Position numbers: made by a program | Assembly: GCF_026571515.1 (NCBI RefSeq) | Contig: NW_026863245.1 | Coordinates: 1 to 64,000, forward strand | Direction: 5' to 3' | DNA: 64,000 bases | Source of the DNA: Ruditapes philippinarum | Lineage: Eukaryota | Shown here: piece by piece, positions 1-24,000 of the stretch | Layout: every line of letters begins with the position of its first letter | Position numbering within the stretch: the first letter of the stretch is position 1

Positions 1-3000
1 TAAACACATTTTGAGGTTGATCGTCAAAGGAGATCTATATAGTCAAATTCACATGATACTGAAATCTGTTAGAGCATCAAAACATACCTCGTACATCCTC
101 AAGGGACTGACCGTTATGTTTTAATCATTTGCAGACCCAATCAAACAGTGATTTTCGATAATATGTTTCGACATTCCATGCAACACATTACATACATGAA
201 GACAATGTACTTATGACAATAAATTGATTTTAATACCTCGTAGTTCGGCTTTCATTTAAGGGAAAAGATATAAAAATTGAGTAGTAAAATATCAGGGGAG
301 TATAGAGAATAAGAAACATACTGTAAAACTTGTTTATTTACATGAAGTTTGGGATGCATGCGCCGGAGCGATGTTATGATGTACATGTAGGATGATTTGT
401 TGATTTTATCCGTGTGTTTTCGTTTCATCGCTCTACGGAAATGTTGACTCAAATTCTGCATAAAATGTATAACGAATAGGTTTGCTCACACTCAAATATA
501 AGTTAATTCCATTAGAAACCATTAGAAATACGACTTTTTTAAATTTCAATAAGATTTTTTGTGATTACTGACCTATTTAAAGCACGGTGCCTACTTAGAA
601 ATGGAAAATAAAATCTACTTCTAATACGAGTTGATGACAAGTTTTTTTTAAACGGCGAATTTGGTGCTAACAAAACAGACGATTCTTTTCAAATATTGAT
701 ACCATGTTTTCATCTACAGTCATTATGTTACATTGTATTTAATAAAGTTTGCACCTAATGTGTTGTATAAGCAGCATCTACACGATATTGTTTCTGTACA
801 CATCTAACAGTTTGAAATCTGTCGAGCTGCAATCATTCGCAACTTTTTCTTTGAGGTTCGATTTACATTTCATTAGGATAAATATTTTTTTTACACTCAA
901 GAAGAGTTTTGGCGCGCCCGACGTGTTTTTTCTTTTCGATATTACGTCACTTTTCTAGGGCTTCACTCCGTGAACGGCACTCCCCCTGGTATTTTTTTGT
1001 ATTTAATAACAGGTGTACCTTTTTATGTCGTTCATACTCTGAGTCGTAATGTTAAAATCTAATGTCCAAATTCATAACTTGATTATTTAAAAAGCTATTT
1101 ATTTGTTAATTATAAGAATGATTTAATGTTAATGTGACTATTTATTTTAATGCACTTGTTACGATATATAGTAACAAATTCGCCTATGATTTACATTGAT
1201 TTAAGTGTCATGTGACATTTATGAGCTTGCAGTCCAGGCCGAAAACTCGTAATCATTATCGGCCCGCTGAACACGAGTAAGTGAACTTGTAAACTAAAAC
1301 AATGACGTCACATTTCACGTCATCAAAACAACTGTTAAAGTCAAAGAAGGTTTAAAGCATGAAATGTTTGATTCTGTGACAAAGCTTAAAGGAACTCCAC
1401 TGAGGTCCAACAGCCTAAAATAATGAATTTTGAAATTCTTTCTAAATCAACTAGTACATTTGAATTTGAAACCAAGCAATAGATGATATATAAATATACA
1501 CGGTATTAAATTGATAATCGATTGTATGCAATTTATGGCCGGTTTGAGTGAAAAGCGTTTAAACGGTTTTCATTTATTGGGCCAATTTTCACAACAAAAT
1601 TGATTATTTCTGGGAAACAGAGTAAGAGCGAATGATTTGAAATTTTGTACACGAGTTATTGGTCTAGACATACATCTAGTTATACAAAAATCTTGAAAAA
1701 AATATTTTTGGTCCCTTCACGTCAAAAAACCTCAGTGGAGTCCCTTTAAGCGTGTTTTGTACAAACACAGTTTCATTCAAATATAAGAACAATAAAAAGT
1801 ACTACAACTTCAATCCGAGAAAATGAAAATAAAACTTCCTTCGTGATTCTTGTGTACTTCGTATTCACATAAGAGACGCATCTCTGTCGTAGTAACTGTA
1901 CAATAGAACTTTACATAGCTTTAAATAGTTGTGAAACTTTGTGAATCTACTCTTATCCTATTAAATATGTTACTTTGTAAATTTATTACTGGAAACACGT
2001 TTTTTAAACTTTATTTTCTGTTTTCGAATTTTACAATTGTTATGTCTTAGGCATACATATAGATATCGATAAGTGTGATATTTTTATGTATTATATTAAA
2101 TGGAAAGTACGAACATGTAATTTTTTTATTTCGTATTTTTTCATGTTAGGTTAATTGTTTATATCTATATGTAAACGTGTTATCTTCGATTAAAAGATAC
2201 AGTATAAAATGCTAGGCATACAAGTTCGCATTTTCAAAAGAAGTTTTCAAACGGAACACTTTACATGTCTGGAACTTTGGCAACGAATGCCTTCCGTAAA
2301 TAGTTTGCTCTTTAATTATTTAATTTTTGTTAACATTTGAACGTTTCAGATGATCGTCTCAGACTTTATCATTTTATTTAAATGCAGATGATGAAAAAAA
2401 TACATGCAGCCAAGCAGAAGTACGTACACTCTATCGAAACAACGCCCGCAATTTATCTCAGATGTTATTCTTTTTGGATTATTCTTTCCAATAAATTGGT
2501 GTTGCGAACAACATTACACTAAAGCCAAGCGGGAAAGTTGTTACACTTTTTATTTTTTATTACGCCCAGACACAGTAAAACCGATTTTTTCGTAATACAT
2601 GTAAATAAAGTTAACATTAATAACAGTAAGTACTGTTTTTTTTATATCACAAAATTTCAAGAAATATGTCAGCACAAATCGTTGAAATTTACCCTGGATG
2701 TGCTACATGTTCGGTGATTCTCTCATTTATCTTCACTCTTTCAGAAAATTTACTTACTTGATAACAAATGCATATTGTCATCATAGAATATACAGAAATA
2801 TATCAATACTAATGTTTATTAGAATAACAAACTTTATAATAGAACTGACAATAACTTCAGTTTTGTAAGAAACATGATCGACAATCTAAACGGAATCATG
2901 AATGATATTATGTAAATTGTTGCCTTTACATTTTGTTACAACTATGTAGGGAGATCAATTAAATGTACATGAAAATGTCACAGCTGTTCCAATGTCAGGA

Positions 3001-21000: not shown

Positions 21001-24000
21001 TTGCTTTTGTTGATCCAACAAATATATCGACTTTCAACAATATTCCAGGTTCATTCGAAATTGTCAATCAAGAAGGAGAAAGGGCTGAACTTGCTTCACA
21101 GGCAATATTTAATCTCTTTTTTGAAGACTTATCTGGAAATCCGTTAATTTTAGATGACGTTATCGATTTGTATCTTCCATTAGAATCAGGAGAAAACGTT
21201 CAGGACAGAGATGTCAAACTTTGGAGACTTAACACTAAGACTGGAATTTGGGAGTACATAACCCAAGGACCAGGAAAGAGAAGACGAAAAAGGCAAGAAT
21301 CAGCACGGTGGATCGGCGAAATAGACTGGTCAATTATCTCTGGTAACGAATGGCTTAATTACGATTATGTTTATGATATAACCGATAACCCATGTTATTT
21401 CAAAATCAGACTTTTTCAAGATGAAACAATGTATTCATCCATTGTGAATCCTGAAAAACAAATAGAAGTAACATATCATATTCTTAGAGACAATAAAACA
21501 ACTTTAAGAACAATCAGCGATTATATTTATTACCCTGAAAGTGATTGTGTAATAGGTATATGTGAAAACGAAACTGCATATATTACGCTTCATTACTACG
21601 GAAGAAAAGGTTACGATGTTTTATTTGCTGGTAAACCTGAACTAGGCCAAAGTAATCAATATTTTGAATTGATGGATAATAATAAAACACTAAAGCTACA
21701 AATGTCGTCCAAAAGCATTGGACCATTTTATGATGGATATTCACGATGTAGCGCAACAGGAAAAGACGAAAACCACCTGAGATATCATTATGGGGAAACG
21801 TCTGAAGTTTTTACATATAATAAATTTTTTTCTCCTACCCAAGGAAATATAGAAAATCAAATATTAATAAGTCAAAGAACCTGGTTTCCAAAACGGCAAG
21901 AGGGCTATAGAGTTTGTTTTGTAAAGGTTCGAATTTTAGTCGAAATAGAATATTTATCCCCTGGTCAGTTTATTAAGTTAAGAGCAACGAGTAAAGGTGG
22001 AACAAATGAAAATACTCACAACTTTACATTCGGAATACGAGAATACAAGATCCAGAATCTAACAGACATATCACTTTGCGTAGAATATAAATGCAGTGGA
22101 ACAATAGACCCTGTATTTCAGGAAATGGATGATTTCACAAAAATAGAATTAAAACTTTTTTATCCAGAAAGTGAAATGACAAGCAGCGTTACACAAGAAG
22201 CAGATTTTTTGACCGATTTCCAAAGTTTGCCAAACGTCGCCCAGATTGGAAGAACAGATGGAATTTATGAAATTTACGCACCGACAGTGTATACTCCAGA
22301 TCTTGGATTATATTCAGCAACTTCTGATCAATTAGATATAGAAAGTGCTACAAACACAGCTGAAGGTGAATGTATATCTGGAACACCGCAAAACCTAGAT
22401 GATCAAAACCCGGATTTGGGCGTTGCAGTTTATTTCTCTCTCAACTGAATATGAAGCTTTTCTTTCTTTATAATAAGTTGTTTGTTTACACAGACGACAA
22501 TGGACCGTTGAATTTGTTTCAAAATGCTAGTTATTACACAATATTTCAAATAAAACAAGTTAAATGTTGATGCTGCACATCAAAGACGCCGCAAAATGGT
22601 GTGAACAGTCAATCAGCATTGAAAAAATCAGCGACACGGGCTACCTCTCTTCATTTGAATTTTTATATCACAGGTACCCTCTCATTTTTGAACACATAGG
22701 TACCCTGAAAGCACGACATATGCTTTTATTTGCGTTAATCGTTAAGTATGTATGTAATATTTCTTACTTTTATGAAAATATTACATACTTAGCGATTAAC
22801 GCACATAAAAGCATATGTCGTGCTTTGAGGGTACCTATGTGTTCAAAAATGAGAGGGTACATGTGATATAAAAATTCAAATGAAGAGAGGTAGCCCGTGC
22901 TGCTGCAAAACCGAAAGTAGGGTGTTTTTATGAATTTTACATTTATTTTTAACAATATATTGCCATTTGTCCGGAGATAATATGTATATGAACATATTAA
23001 ATATGTATGATGCATAAATAATCAAGCCACAGGTTCATTTCAGCCCGAAAAATACGTCGACATGTCGATTTTTTGTAGCTTATTGTGAAGTTGCAGTACA
23101 TGAAAATCGGGCACATGACAAATCAGCACATAAATAAAACATTCTAGTGTTCCGGGGTATAAATCTTTTCTTCGTGTCATACCTCATTCTTTATTACAAT
23201 GAAATTTTACTGGATTGTTATCCATCGCTGGTTTGTTTTTAGCAGAGATGTTCAAAGAGGGCACCGTTTGAGCAGATTTCGCAAAGAGGGTACCGATATG
23301 GATATGCACCGTGGGTATGTTTCCGAGACATTTTTAAAACAAGAATCTCATTTGCAATACCTCACAACAACGGAATTTCACATTAGTTATTTTTGTTCAC
23401 TAAGTAATTTACTTTTTTAGTTTATATGTAGTTAATTAATAAAATTGTCAATAATTAAGTGTTTTTGAAGGCCTTCGTCACAACACTATTTTGAACGAAA
23501 CGGTTATCTTCAAATAACTGTAAAATATAAGATAATAATTTAATTATCTGCTTTTTAATAACATTTATGATAAAACTCTGAATATAAAAATACGAAAATC
23601 TTAGGATAAATGAAATGATATTTTGTGTATTTGTAATAGTTACATCCTTCATTTGCCGTTACTGTCATTATATTCAATTTGACATTTGGTGTCATTTAGT
23701 TTGTCTAATGGACTTATTTTACTTTTAAAATAGCAGTTTAATTAATATATATAACATACTTTTAGTTAAAGTAAGAAGCTTAAAGAACGCACACAACAAA
23801 ACTAAAATGTTGCATGCAGGATCGGTTTGATTGACCTTGATCATTGATGGTAGTGTTGAATGCAATCTTCCGTCCATACCACCTAGCACAAGCTTATTAA
23901 GCAGAACCAATATTTGAAGAAGGCTATAATTATTTGATACAAATTTGTGGGGTTTTTATCTATAAATCATCTAAGAGAATTAGAGAAATAGCGTACCACA

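What the first reader, a model, noticed from the sequence alone, without database searches (positions are those of the whole stretch)
2955..22448. Head-to-head pair of membrane-anchored CILP-like paralogs
Seen: two divergently oriented genes with the same 8-exon layout and matching intron phases wherever readable, start codons ~3.2 kb apart (including a gap), and strongly diverged proteins. Each begins with a hydrophilic segment (~48 aa in B, ~90 aa in A), then basic residue(s), one 20-25 aa hydrophobic helix, a Thr/Ser stalk and 2 TSP1 repeats. Known: vertebrate CILP1/2 are secreted matrix proteins with a cleavable signal peptide, a WxxW domain and one TSP1. Inference: these are type II membrane-tethered CILP relatives from an old inverted duplication, possibly a co-regulated cell-surface/matrix system (e.g. 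mantle or ligament). This is the best candidate for an undescribed system here; I cannot verify novelty without a search.
[Added by the scan's program, not by the reader: the finding's places include an assembly gap (unread letters, written N; its length is only estimated) at 5986 to 6134, 14625 to 14760. Whether the letters on both sides are continuous or in frame is not known: test that first.]
Basis: partly seen in the sequence, partly recalled or inferred. Interest (0 to 1): 0.75.

Follow-up and report, generated by a model that had tools for sequence, protein, structure and literature searches.

The report
Membrane-anchored CILP-like gene pair in clam
Two diverged Manila clam genes related to the vertebrate cartilage protein CILP appear to be anchored in the cell membrane, not secreted; one is already in public annotation, and the other is too poorly assembled to say whether it still works.

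Summary
The window is Ruditapes philippinarum (Manila clam). Gene B (+, 16495-22448) matches a public 1,135-aa NCBI model named 'cartilage intermediate layer protein 1-like' at 100%. It has 8 exons with intron phases 1,1,1,1,1,2,1. Gene A (-, 13256-2955) is a strongly diverged paralogue, about 29% identical in the last exon. Its exons 1-5 and 8 are readable and share B's phase-1 junctions.

Exons 6-7 and the 5' third of A's exon 8 lie in a homopolymer-inflated, frameshift-ridden patch next to the gap at 5986-6134. Exon 5 carries an in-frame TAA in clean sequence. No public protein model of A was found.

Both genes start with a long hydrophilic segment (49 and 92 aa), then a 25- or 23-aa hydrophobic helix, a Ser/Thr stalk and two TSP1 repeats. 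All 11 full-length relatives in their clade share this layout, and it fits a type II signal anchor.

B-type proteins keep the furin-type site of vertebrate CILP; the A clade lacks it.

The head-to-head order rests on a scaffold join across the gap at 14625-14760. No paper on invertebrate CILP turned up.

Verdict: a real variant of a known family, of modest interest.

The parts
12875..13256 (-). Gene A exon 1. ATG at 13256-13254, a 92-aa hydrophilic tail, the hydrophobic segment at 12980-12912 (23 aa), and a phase-1 GTAAGT donor at 12874.
   Evidence: Sequence read; ORF; segment table; translation. No Pfam hit.
12322..12654 (-). Gene A exon 2, the Ser/Thr-rich stalk (about 111 codons). Acceptor and donor are both phase 1. 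It contains a 33-base tandem repeat at 12465-12532.
7522..7680 (-). Gene A exon 3, the first TSP1 repeat, phase 1 at both ends.
   Evidence: Pfam TSP_1 E 4.6e-14; 48% identical to B exon 3; junctions read.
6891..7052 (-). Gene A exon 4, the second TSP1 repeat, phase 1 at both ends.
   Evidence: Pfam TSP_1 E 3.3e-10; 51% identical to B exon 4; junctions read.
6251..6541 (-). Gene A exon 5 as defined by homology (the carboxypeptidase-regulatory-like domain position). An in-frame TAA at 6275-6273 sits 8 codons before the donor that corresponds to B's. A possible upstream phase-1 donor lies at 6295-6294.
   Evidence: Sequence. The HSP of B exon 5 runs through the stop to 6249. Relatives align at 6557-6285. 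Run statistics show clean sequence here.
5986..6134 (.). Assembly gap, lying by homology in intron 5 of gene A. Not filled.
   Evidence: gap list. Exon 5 lies above it and the exon 6 trace and exon 8 below it.
4650..5985 (.). Homopolymer-inflated, probably error-rich patch that abuts the gap. It covers the 5' third of gene A's exon 8, intron 7 or 6, and any Ig exons.
   Evidence: Same-neighbour fraction 0.43-0.55 against a window median of 0.315. Runs of 4 or more bases are about 13% of runs against about 3% in clean sequence.
5752..5848 (-). Possible remnant of gene A exon 6 (first half of the Ig domain). A weak trace only.
   Evidence: All 7 relatives place their best frameshift-tolerant hit here. 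Shuffles reaching the observed score: 5, 2, 9, 6, 0, 0 and 2 of 30.
2955..5023 (-). Gene A exon 8. A clean 582-codon ORF spans 4703-2958, with the stop at 2957-2955 (CILP_C domain, no basic cleavage site). The homologous 5' part (CILP_5th plus CILP domains) reaches up to about 5023 but is broken by 6 frameshifts and a stop. The true acceptor is not definable.
13257..16494 (.). Region between the two start codons (3,238 bases), including the assembly gap at 14625-14760 and an inverted repeat at 15218-15393.
16495..16747 (+). Gene B exon 1. ATG at 16495, two codons after an in-frame stop. A 49-aa hydrophilic tail, the hydrophobic segment at 16642-16716 (25 aa), and a phase-1 donor.
   Evidence: Exact match to P0001 residues 1-84.
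16948..17052 (+). Gene B exon 2, the Thr/Ser-rich stalk, phase 1 at both ends.
   Evidence: ORF.
17178..17342 (+). Gene B exon 3, the first TSP1 repeat.
   Evidence: Pfam TSP_1 E 2.2e-11.
17728..17892 (+). Gene B exon 4, the second TSP1 repeat. Its donor is GC (17893-17894).
   Evidence: Pfam TSP_1 E 6.6e-9.
18153..18467 (+). Gene B exon 5 (the carboxypeptidase-regulatory-like domain position). The public model starts it at 18153 after a non-AG dinucleotide. A canonical AG at 18169-18170 would start it at 18171 and give the junction seen in all paralogues.
   Evidence: The only Pfam match is weak and below cut-off (CarbopepD_reg_2, E 0.038).
19350..19458 (+). Gene B exon 6, the first half of the Ig domain, with a phase-2 donor.
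19653..19810 (+). Gene B exon 7, the second half of the Ig domain.
20311..22448 (+). Gene B exon 8, with the CILP_5th, CILP and CILP_C domains and the stop at 22446-22448. The basic KRRRKR motif lies at 21276-21293.
   Evidence: Pfam; exact match to P0001 residues 424-1135; motif translated. The motif starts in one of four segments with pLDDT below 50.

Best explanation
Gene B encodes a single-pass type II (N-terminus inside the cell) membrane glycoprotein of the CILP family. Its order is a short cytoplasmic tail, a signal-anchor helix, a mucin-like Ser/Thr stalk, two TSP1 repeats, a carboxypeptidase-regulatory-like domain, an Ig domain, then the CILP_5th, CILP and CILP_C domains. It is most likely inserted co-translationally with the whole CILP part outside the cell, and glycosylated on the stalk and the TSP1 repeats. 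A furin-type convertase then probably cuts it at KRRRKR, as in vertebrate CILP. That would leave the N-terminal two thirds (TSP1, Ig) on the cell surface and release the C-terminal ~385 residues into the matrix.

Gene A is an old paralogue from a sister subclade with the same anchor-stalk-2xTSP1 front end but no furin-type site, so its ectodomain would stay whole. In this assembly gene A's middle lies in an error-rich patch beside a gap, and exon 5 carries a stop. Whether A is functional cannot be decided here.

Shown: family membership, exon structure, the N-terminal sequence features and their conservation, and the presence or absence of the basic site. Inferred: topology, glycosylation, cleavage, and any ligand-binding role.
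For: - Identity and family: 100% match of B to the NCBI model P0001 from Ruditapes philippinarum; Pfam domains.
- Anchor: hydrophobic segments of 25 aa (B) and 23 aa (A), with 19-residue Kyte-Doolittle means of 3.47 and 2.82, lie 49 and 92 residues from the first ATG. Flank charges are +1/-3 (B) and +5/-2 (A). Of 19 family N-termini, all have a 21-28-aa segment after 15-200 residues, and 16 have the more positive N-flank. The start of the abstract of PMC2139883, seen in the listing, states that flanking charges largely determine signal-anchor orientation.
- Conservation: 11 of 11 rows with an N-terminal part in the 26-row clade (SH-aLRT 98) carry the internal anchor. Five rows of the other major clade have an N-terminal signal-peptide-like segment.
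- Architecture: 4 of 4 anchor-type proteins scanned have two TSP_1 stretches and no Mucin2_WxxW. Of 4 signal-peptide types, 3 have WxxW.
- Outside orientation: all four TSP1 exons carry WxxWxxW and CxxS/TCxxG. These are the consensus sites for C-mannosylation and for O-fucosylation by POFUT2, one of the ER-localised protein O-fucosyltransferases (passages of PMC11990869).
- Cleavage: an R-x-K/R-R type run sits at the aligned column in 21 of 25 rows. The 4 without it are exactly the A clade. Residues 322-324, at the start of the motif at 323-328, form one of four segments with pLDDT below 50 in a model of mean pLDDT 80.1. Human CILP2 is described with a 21-aa signal peptide, one TSP1, an Ig-C2 domain and a furin consensus site that yields free N- and C-terminal parts (passages of PMC12839030).
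- Gene A's patch. There are 6 frameshifts in about 155 codons inside it and none in the adjoining 582-codon ORF.
Against: - No topology predictor (DeepTMHMM, SignalP, Phobius) and no transcript data were available, so anchor versus cleaved signal rests on classical sequence rules.
- For 3 of 19 N-termini the charge rule is neutral or reversed (P0017, P0060, P0062).
- The splicing of A's exon 1 to exons 2 and 3 is inferred only from phase compatibility and analogy.
- The tail-only profile test for A-B homology failed. A's tail scores about 2 bits, and at least 12 of 200 shuffles score higher.
- Gene A has an in-frame TAA in clean sequence, and no public protein model was found. A may be dead.
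- The public B model needs a GC donor and a non-AG acceptor at intron 4, so at least one junction of that model is doubtful.
- Furin cleavage is inferred from a motif only.
Confidence: 0.7

Rival explanations
1. The hydrophobic segment is a long but cleavable signal sequence, or translation starts elsewhere. The proteins would then be secreted matrix proteins like vertebrate CILP, and 'membrane-tethered' would be wrong.
For: Vertebrate CILP2 is secreted with a 21-aa signal peptide (PMC12839030 passages). No predictor or experiment was available here. Gene models can mis-place start codons.
Against: - In B the first ATG follows an in-frame stop by two codons, and there is no other ATG before the hydrophobic segment.
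- The hydrophobic cores are 21-28 aa long in 19 of 19 N-termini, longer than typical signal-peptide cores (recalled general knowledge).
- The 49-200-aa upstream segments are conserved in kind across 11 of 11 full-length clade members.
- B-type tails share a juxtamembrane motif of the form VKPSxSPxxK (alignment).
Confidence: 0.12
2. Gene A is a pseudogene or null allele. On this view the TAA in exon 5 and the frameshifts and stop in the 5' part of exon 8 are real, and only gene B is functional, so there is no two-gene 'system'.
For: - The TAA at 6275-6273 lies in compositionally clean sequence, at a position where relatives have Leu or Asn.
- There are 6 frameshifts and a stop at 5023-4560.
- The second Ig exon was not found.
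- No protein model of A appears in two searches. One search covered all lengths and its best hits were 44-48% identical, plus a 148-aa fragment at 93%. One search covered 320-1,019 aa.
Against: - The frameshifts are confined to a patch whose homopolymer inflation covers exon and intron alike, starts at about 4650 and ends at the gap. Two other such patches exist in the window.
- The adjoining 582-codon ORF and exons 1-4 are intact. At the patch's rate, about 20 frameshifts would be expected in that ORF (my arithmetic).
- A phase-1 GT upstream of the TAA (6295-6294) could bypass it.
- A 93%-identical fragment (P0016) exists in another record.
Confidence: 0.35
3. The head-to-head arrangement is a scaffolding artefact. 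The contig carrying gene B and the contig carrying exons 1-5 of gene A are joined only by the gap at 14625-14760, so they may not be neighbours or may have another orientation.
For: The join is an N-gap of estimated length. No repeat, ORF or overlap spans it. The assembly shows other quality problems.
Against: The other gap, inside gene A, is confirmed as correctly ordered and oriented by exon collinearity, which speaks for the scaffolder. Two Mercenaria paralogues (P0003, P0007) lie on one 120-Mb record, which is compatible with linked family members but says nothing about orientation.
Confidence: 0.2

Closest known systems
Vertebrate CILP1/CILP2 (cartilage intermediate layer proteins)
   Same: The core order is shared: TSP1, carboxypeptidase-regulatory-like domain, Ig, CILP_5th, CILP, CILP_C. 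So is the furin-type basic site in the middle of the protein in B-type members (PMC12839030 passages), and the POFUT2-type motif in the TSP1 repeat (one search lists CILP2 as a putative substrate).
   Different: The clam proteins have an internal 23-25-aa hydrophobic anchor after 49-92 residues, where vertebrates have a 21-aa signal peptide. They have a Ser/Thr stalk and two TSP1 repeats instead of one. They show no Mucin2_WxxW domain and no CILP_8th hit at E <= 1e-4 (0 of 4 anchor types against 4 of 4 signal-peptide types). The A clade also lacks the basic site.
Public CILP1-like models of venerid clams (P0002 and P0005 from Ruditapes; P0003 and P0007 from Mercenaria)
   Same: Same anchor-stalk-2xTSP1-Ig-CILP architecture and the same basic site. 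They are 50-67% identical to B's exon 8.
   Different: These are B-type paralogues and orthologues. None represents gene A, whose nearest relatives (P0013-P0015, 41-48% identity) are unnamed records.
Branchiostoma lanceolatum CILP (P0012)
   Same: Thr-rich N-terminal stretch, TSP1, Ig, CILP domains and a KRRRKKR site.
   Different: The model starts directly in the Thr-rich stretch, with neither an anchor nor a signal peptide, and may be 5'-incomplete. It has one TSP1 repeat.
Type II membrane matrix or ligand proteins shed by furin (transmembrane collagens XIII/XVII/XXIII/XXV, ectodysplasin). Recalled; not tested here.
   Same: What it would work like: an N-in signal anchor, a large matrix-type ectodomain and a furin-type site that releases part of it.
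   Different: No sequence relationship. In gene B the site lies about 670 residues from the membrane, so most of the ectodomain would stay tethered.
Teneurin ectodomains (top Foldseek hits)
   Same: Teneurins are type II membrane proteins (recalled). Foldseek matches them to the B exon-8 model with E 6.9e-6 and probability 0.98.
   Different: TM-score is only 0.11 and rmsd above 24 A. This is a generic match between beta-sandwich arrays and no evidence of kinship.

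Membership tests
CILP family (Pfam CILP_C / CILP / CILP_5th set) | C-terminal CILP_C domain (PF23599) | tested here: met
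   A exon 8: E 1.2e-24, 87.2 bits (cut-off 27). B exon 8: E 5.3e-19, 68.8 bits.
CILP family | CILP_5th (PF23708) and CILP (PF23591) domains upstream of CILP_C | tested here: met
   B: E 1.1e-13 and 2.2e-12. A: met only through a frameshift-tolerant alignment at 5023-4560 (score 181 against 33 +/- 3, with 6 frameshifts). For A this is present but not readable as an open frame.
CILP family | TSP1 repeat(s) N-terminal to the core | tested here: met
   Two TSP_1 exons in each gene. Vertebrate CILP2 is described with one.
CILP family | Ig (C2-type) domain between the carboxypeptidase-regulatory-like domain and CILP_5th | tested here: inconclusive
   B: each exon alone scores below cut-off (Ig_3 E 1e-3 and 2.2e-3), but the public whole model P0001 gives Ig_3 E 4.3e-11. 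A: only a weak trace of the first half at 5848-5752, and the second half was not found.
CILP family (vertebrate type) | Furin-type basic site separating the N- and C-terminal halves | tested here: met
   B: KRRRKR at 21276-21293, at the aligned column in 21 of 25 rows. A and its three clade-mates: not met.
CILP family (vertebrate type) | Cleavable N-terminal signal peptide | tested here: not met
   The hydrophobic segment starts at residue 50 (B) and 93 (A) and is 25 and 23 aa long. It was judged by sequence rules only; no predictor was run.
CILP family (vertebrate type) | N-terminal Mucin2_WxxW domain | tested here: not met
   No hit in any exon ORF of A or B, nor in 4 of 4 anchor-type whole proteins. 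It is present in 3 of 4 signal-peptide-type proteins.
Type II (signal-anchor) single-pass membrane proteins | One internal hydrophobic helix of about 20 aa or more, no N-terminal signal peptide, and a more positive N-terminal flank | tested here: met
   A +5/-2, B +1/-3. One strongly hydrophobic segment lies upstream of the TSP1 repeats. The remaining parts of the proteins were not scanned with a dedicated predictor.
Type II (signal-anchor) single-pass membrane proteins | Experimentally membrane-integrated with the C-terminus outside | not testable with these tools
   Needs fractionation, protease protection or surface labelling.

The most novel reading that the evidence does not exclude
A whole, undescribed clade of CILP relatives consists of type II cell-surface proteins with a conserved juxtamembrane cytoplasmic motif. 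The clade is rich in clam paralogues and includes both genes here. On this reading, membrane anchoring is the older state of the CILP family, or a major lineage-specific reinvention. The tethered TSP1/Ig half would act as a cell-surface trap or receptor for matrix or growth-factor ligands. In B-type members furin would release the CILP_C half into the matrix. The furin-less A-type, some members of which carry long repeat-bearing cytoplasmic tails (P0013), would be non-shed, possibly signalling variants.
Probability: 0.25. Interest if true: 0.55.

Novelty: new variant of a known kind. Interest (0 to 1): 0.35.

Why it matters
CILP is studied almost only as a secreted vertebrate cartilage and heart matrix protein that modulates growth-factor signalling. 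If the clam clade really is membrane-anchored, the same domain core is used as a cell-surface molecule in molluscs, with a shed subtype and a non-shed subtype. That would give a handle on what the conserved CILP core does outside cartilage, and on how a matrix protein switches between tethered and secreted forms.

Practically, the analysis also flags two problems in the data. The assembly contains unpolished patches that break real genes, gene A among them. The public model of gene B has a doubtful exon 4/5 junction.

Tried and rejected
- a search for relatives of B's exon 8 in the 'longer' length band found nothing. I had misjudged the band, and the 'near' band worked.
The organisms of P0013-P0080 therefore stay unknown, and I cannot say how far beyond venerid clams the anchored clade reaches.
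- plain tblastn found no Ig or CILP_5th in gene A. My first reading, a deletion with a cryptic acceptor at about 4622, was rejected once the frameshift-tolerant alignment and the homopolymer statistics showed that the exon continues upstream in a corrupted patch.
- the second half of the Ig domain was not found in 5024-5985. The best hits of the 7 relatives scatter, and their scores lie within the shuffles.
- the test for homology of the cytoplasmic tails of A and B-type proteins was negative, so the exon 1 similarity (E 3e-4) is mostly the hydrophobic segment.
- there is no solved structure related by sequence.
- the fold search returned only generic beta-sandwich arrays (TM-score 0.15 or below on the query), so no functional inference was drawn.
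- the patch at 4704-5985 is not a repeat found elsewhere in the window, so a transposon insertion was neither shown nor excluded.
- Literature: in seven listings I saw no title or abstract start about a mollusc, bivalve, oyster, clam or amphioxus CILP or a membrane-anchored CILP. These searches cover main texts of the held library only.
- Not used or not available: the genome collection on offer holds only bacteria and archaea, so I did not use it. Synteny in other molluscs therefore stayed unchecked.
- I sent no complex-prediction job, because no binding claim is made.

Full report
WHAT IS THERE

The window is AT-rich animal DNA (GC about 0.28-0.38). The terminal-exon ORF at 20292-22445 matches a 1,135-aa NCBI protein of Ruditapes philippinarum named 'cartilage intermediate layer protein 1-like' (P0001) at 100%. 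The window is therefore Manila clam, and gene B is already publicly annotated.

The only whole spliced protein I used is the public model itself.

GENE B

Every exon ORF matches P0001 exactly. The exons are:
- 16495-16747
- 16948-17052
- 17178-17342
- 17728-17892
- 18153-18467
- 19350-19458
- 19653-19810
- 20311-22448

The intron phases are 1,1,1,1,1,2,1.

Pfam on single exons gives TSP_1 in exons 3 and 4, sub-threshold Ig matches in exons 6 and 7, and CILP_5th, CILP and CILP_C in exon 8.

One junction is odd. Intron 4 has a GC donor, and the model's acceptor is not AG. A canonical AG at 18169-18170 would give the 'CP|DCS' junction that every paralogue shows. I suspect the six residues 'VSSKML' in the public model are an annotation slip, but I cannot test that without transcripts.

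GENE A

On the minus strand the ATG is at 13256. The verified exons are:
- Exon 1: 13256-12875
- Exon 2: 12654-12322
- Exon 3: 7680-7522
- Exon 4: 7052-6891
- Exon 5: starts at 6541

All these junctions are phase 1 and lie at the places homologous to B's. Exons 3 and 4 are TSP_1, and the terminal ORF at 4703-2958 has CILP_C.

Identity to B is as follows:
- 48% and 51% in the TSP1 exons
- 23-26% in exon 5
- about 29% over 574 residues of exon 8
- a marginal 26% (E 3e-4) in exon 1

Three things are wrong with A.

First, an in-frame TAA (6275-6273) lies 8 codons before the donor that corresponds to B's, in compositionally normal sequence. A phase-1 GT at 6295-6294 could bypass it.

Second, plain tblastn with 12 relatives finds no Ig exon, and nothing for the first ~160 residues of exon 8.

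Third, the closest relatives (P0013, P0015) do have those parts. A frameshift-tolerant alignment shows that P0015 residues 13-168 match 5023-4560. The score is 181, against 33.1 +/- 3.1 (maximum 40) in 12 shuffles, but the match needs 6 frameshifts and crosses a stop. P0013 and P0014 agree, with scores of 84 and 82 against about 32 +/- 3.

The first Ig half leaves only a trace at 5848-5752. All 7 relatives place their best hit there, but only 2 of 7 beat all 30 shuffles. The second half was not found.

IS THE DAMAGE TO GENE A REAL?

From about 4650 to the gap edge at 5985, the fraction of bases identical to their neighbour is 0.43-0.55. The window median is 0.315 and the 95th percentile 0.42.

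Runs of four or more bases make up about 13% of runs there, against about 3% in A's clean exon, in introns, in the intergenic region and on the far side of the gap. G and C runs are inflated too. Two further patches (42400-43100 and 43700-44300) look the same.

The inflation covers exon and intron alike. It starts where the 582-codon ORF ends and stops at the gap. Six frameshifts in about 155 codons beside none in 582 is not what uniform decay would give. I therefore read the patch as unpolished sequence beside a gap, so gene A's middle is simply not readable here.

The TAA in exon 5 is outside the patch and may be real.

No protein model of A exists in the two collections searched. One search covered every length and its best full-length hits were 41-48% identical, plus a 148-aa fragment at 93%. 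One search covered 320-1,019 aa. Whether A is a working gene remains open.

THE GAPS

Gap 5986-6134 sits, by homology, in intron 5 of A. Exon order and strand are collinear across it, which supports that join.

Gap 14625-14760 sits between the two start codons. Nothing in the sequence tests that join, and the flanks do not overlap. The head-to-head arrangement (3,238 bases between the ATGs) is therefore only as good as the scaffold.

THE N-TERMINUS

B has 49 hydrophilic residues and then a 25-aa hydrophobic segment (16642-16716). A has 92 residues and then 23 aa (12980-12912).

In B the ATG comes two codons after an in-frame stop, and there is no other ATG before the helix. In A the only other ATG is at residue 16.

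The flanking charges are +1/-3 (B) and +5/-2 (A). Among 19 family N-termini examined, all have a 21-28-aa segment preceded by 15-200 residues. The N-flank is the more positive in 16, tied in 1 and reversed in 2.

All four TSP1 exons carry the WxxWxxW and CxxS/TCxxG motifs. A review gives these as the consensus for C-mannosylation and for O-fucosylation by POFUT2, one of the ER-localised protein O-fucosyltransferases (passages of PMC11990869). With a single helix this fits N-in, C-out, that is, type II.

These are classical rules, not a predictor's output, and no experiment backs them.

HOW COMMON IS IT?

I built a tree on the exon-8 region. It has 45 rows: A8 plus the 44 of 80 family proteins that align to A8 over at least 430 residues. 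The other 36 were left out, among them amphioxus P0012. The tree uses 578 columns, a quick IQ-TREE search and SH-aLRT support.

- A8 groups with P0015 (98), then with P0013 and P0014 (100).
- That clade is sister to a 22-row clade (92) which contains B and the named Ruditapes and Mercenaria models.
- In the joint 26-row clade (98), all 11 rows that keep an N-terminal part have the internal anchor.
- In the other 14-row clade, five rows have an N-terminal signal-peptide-like segment and one has a segment at residue 18.

The root is at the midpoint only, so I do not claim which state is ancestral.

Pfam on whole database proteins shows:
- Four of four anchor types have two TSP_1 stretches, no Mucin2_WxxW and no CILP_8th at E <= 1e-4.
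- Three of four signal-peptide types have WxxW, and all four have CILP_8th.

B-type tails share a motif of the form VKPSxSPxxK just before the helix (alignment). A's tail does not score above shuffles against that profile.

CLEAVAGE

B has KRRRKR at 21276-21293. In alignment A1, 21 of 25 rows have an R-x-K/R-R type run at that column, and the four without it are exactly the A clade.

In an AlphaFold model of B's exon 8 (mean pLDDT 80.1, pTM 0.59), residues 322-324, at the start of the motif at 323-328, form one of only four segments below pLDDT 50. That is consistent with an exposed loop.

A review describes human CILP2 as having a 21-aa signal peptide, one TSP1, an Ig-C2 domain and a furin consensus site that yields free N- and C-terminal parts (passages of PMC12839030).

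MECHANISM (INFERRED)

B would be displayed on the cell surface on a glycosylated stalk. A furin-type cut would release the C-terminal ~385 residues and leave the TSP1/Ig part tethered. A-type proteins would stay whole.

The structure gives no further functional lead. There is no sequence relative in the PDB, and the Foldseek hits are only generic beta-sandwich arrays with TM-score 0.15 or below.

COMPARISON AND NOVELTY

Both genes belong to the CILP family by their domain core. They fail two features of the described vertebrate proteins, the cleavable signal peptide and the WxxW domain. The A clade fails a third, the furin site.

The variant exists in public automated models. In seven listings I saw no paper about it. 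Those searches cover main text only, and supplements were closed.

I rate it a new variant of a known kind, of modest interest. The 'system' idea (co-regulated pair) has no support beyond adjacency across a gap, and one partner may not be functional.

LEFT UNCHECKED
- Transcripts.
- Topology predictors.

Noticed in passing
window 17893-18171: Intron 4 of gene B has a GC donor (17893-17894). The public model P0001 uses a non-AG acceptor (AA at 18151-18152), which adds six residues that no paralogue has. A canonical AG at 18169-18170 would give the junction seen in all paralogues.
   Followed up: partly
window 39900-40100, 42400-43100, 43700-44300 (and 4650-5985): Patches with strongly inflated homopolymer runs of all four bases (same-neighbour fraction 0.48-0.58 against a median of 0.315). 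They look like unpolished sequence, and any gene crossing them would appear frameshifted.
   Followed up: partly
window about 27706-39794, minus strand: Exons of a cytochrome P450 gene. Pfam p450 gives E 4.3e-27 at 27706-28122 and E 3.6e-9 at 31342-31713. A possible N-terminal exon at 39501-39794 has no Pfam hit.
   Followed up: partly
window 61519-61590, plus strand: A tRNA-Thr (anticodon CGT) called by both ARAGORN and Rfam (33.2 bits, gathering score 29).
   Followed up: no
window 15218-15393 and 58659-58840: A ~175-base element in the A-B intergenic region that matches itself in reverse (80% identity) and recurs near 58.7 kb (87% identity). It looks like a small palindromic dispersed repeat, possibly a MITE.
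   Followed up: no
window 9764-9904, minus strand (intron 2 of gene A): A short ORF with weak, sub-threshold matches to transposase-type helix-turn-helix domains (HTH_Tnp_4 E 2.4e-4; Sleeping Beauty HTH E 0.09). It is possibly a decayed transposon remnant.
   Followed up: partly
protein P0013 (unnamed A-type relative), residues about 18-170: Its ~200-aa cytoplasmic tail contains four repeats of a ~38-aa unit with a DYEK..RRKS..ETPYS.Y-like core. Gene A's tail has at most one loosely similar copy.
   Followed up: no
window 12465-12532 and 7756-7791: A 33-base tandem repeat (2.1 copies) lies inside gene A's Ser/Thr stalk exon, and a TG-rich 10-base repeat lies just upstream of exon 3.
   Followed up: no
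window 6135-6200, minus strand: The ~65 bases directly beside the gap are noticeably more GC-rich than their surroundings and unlike the adjoining intron. This may be a contig-end artefact.
   Followed up: no
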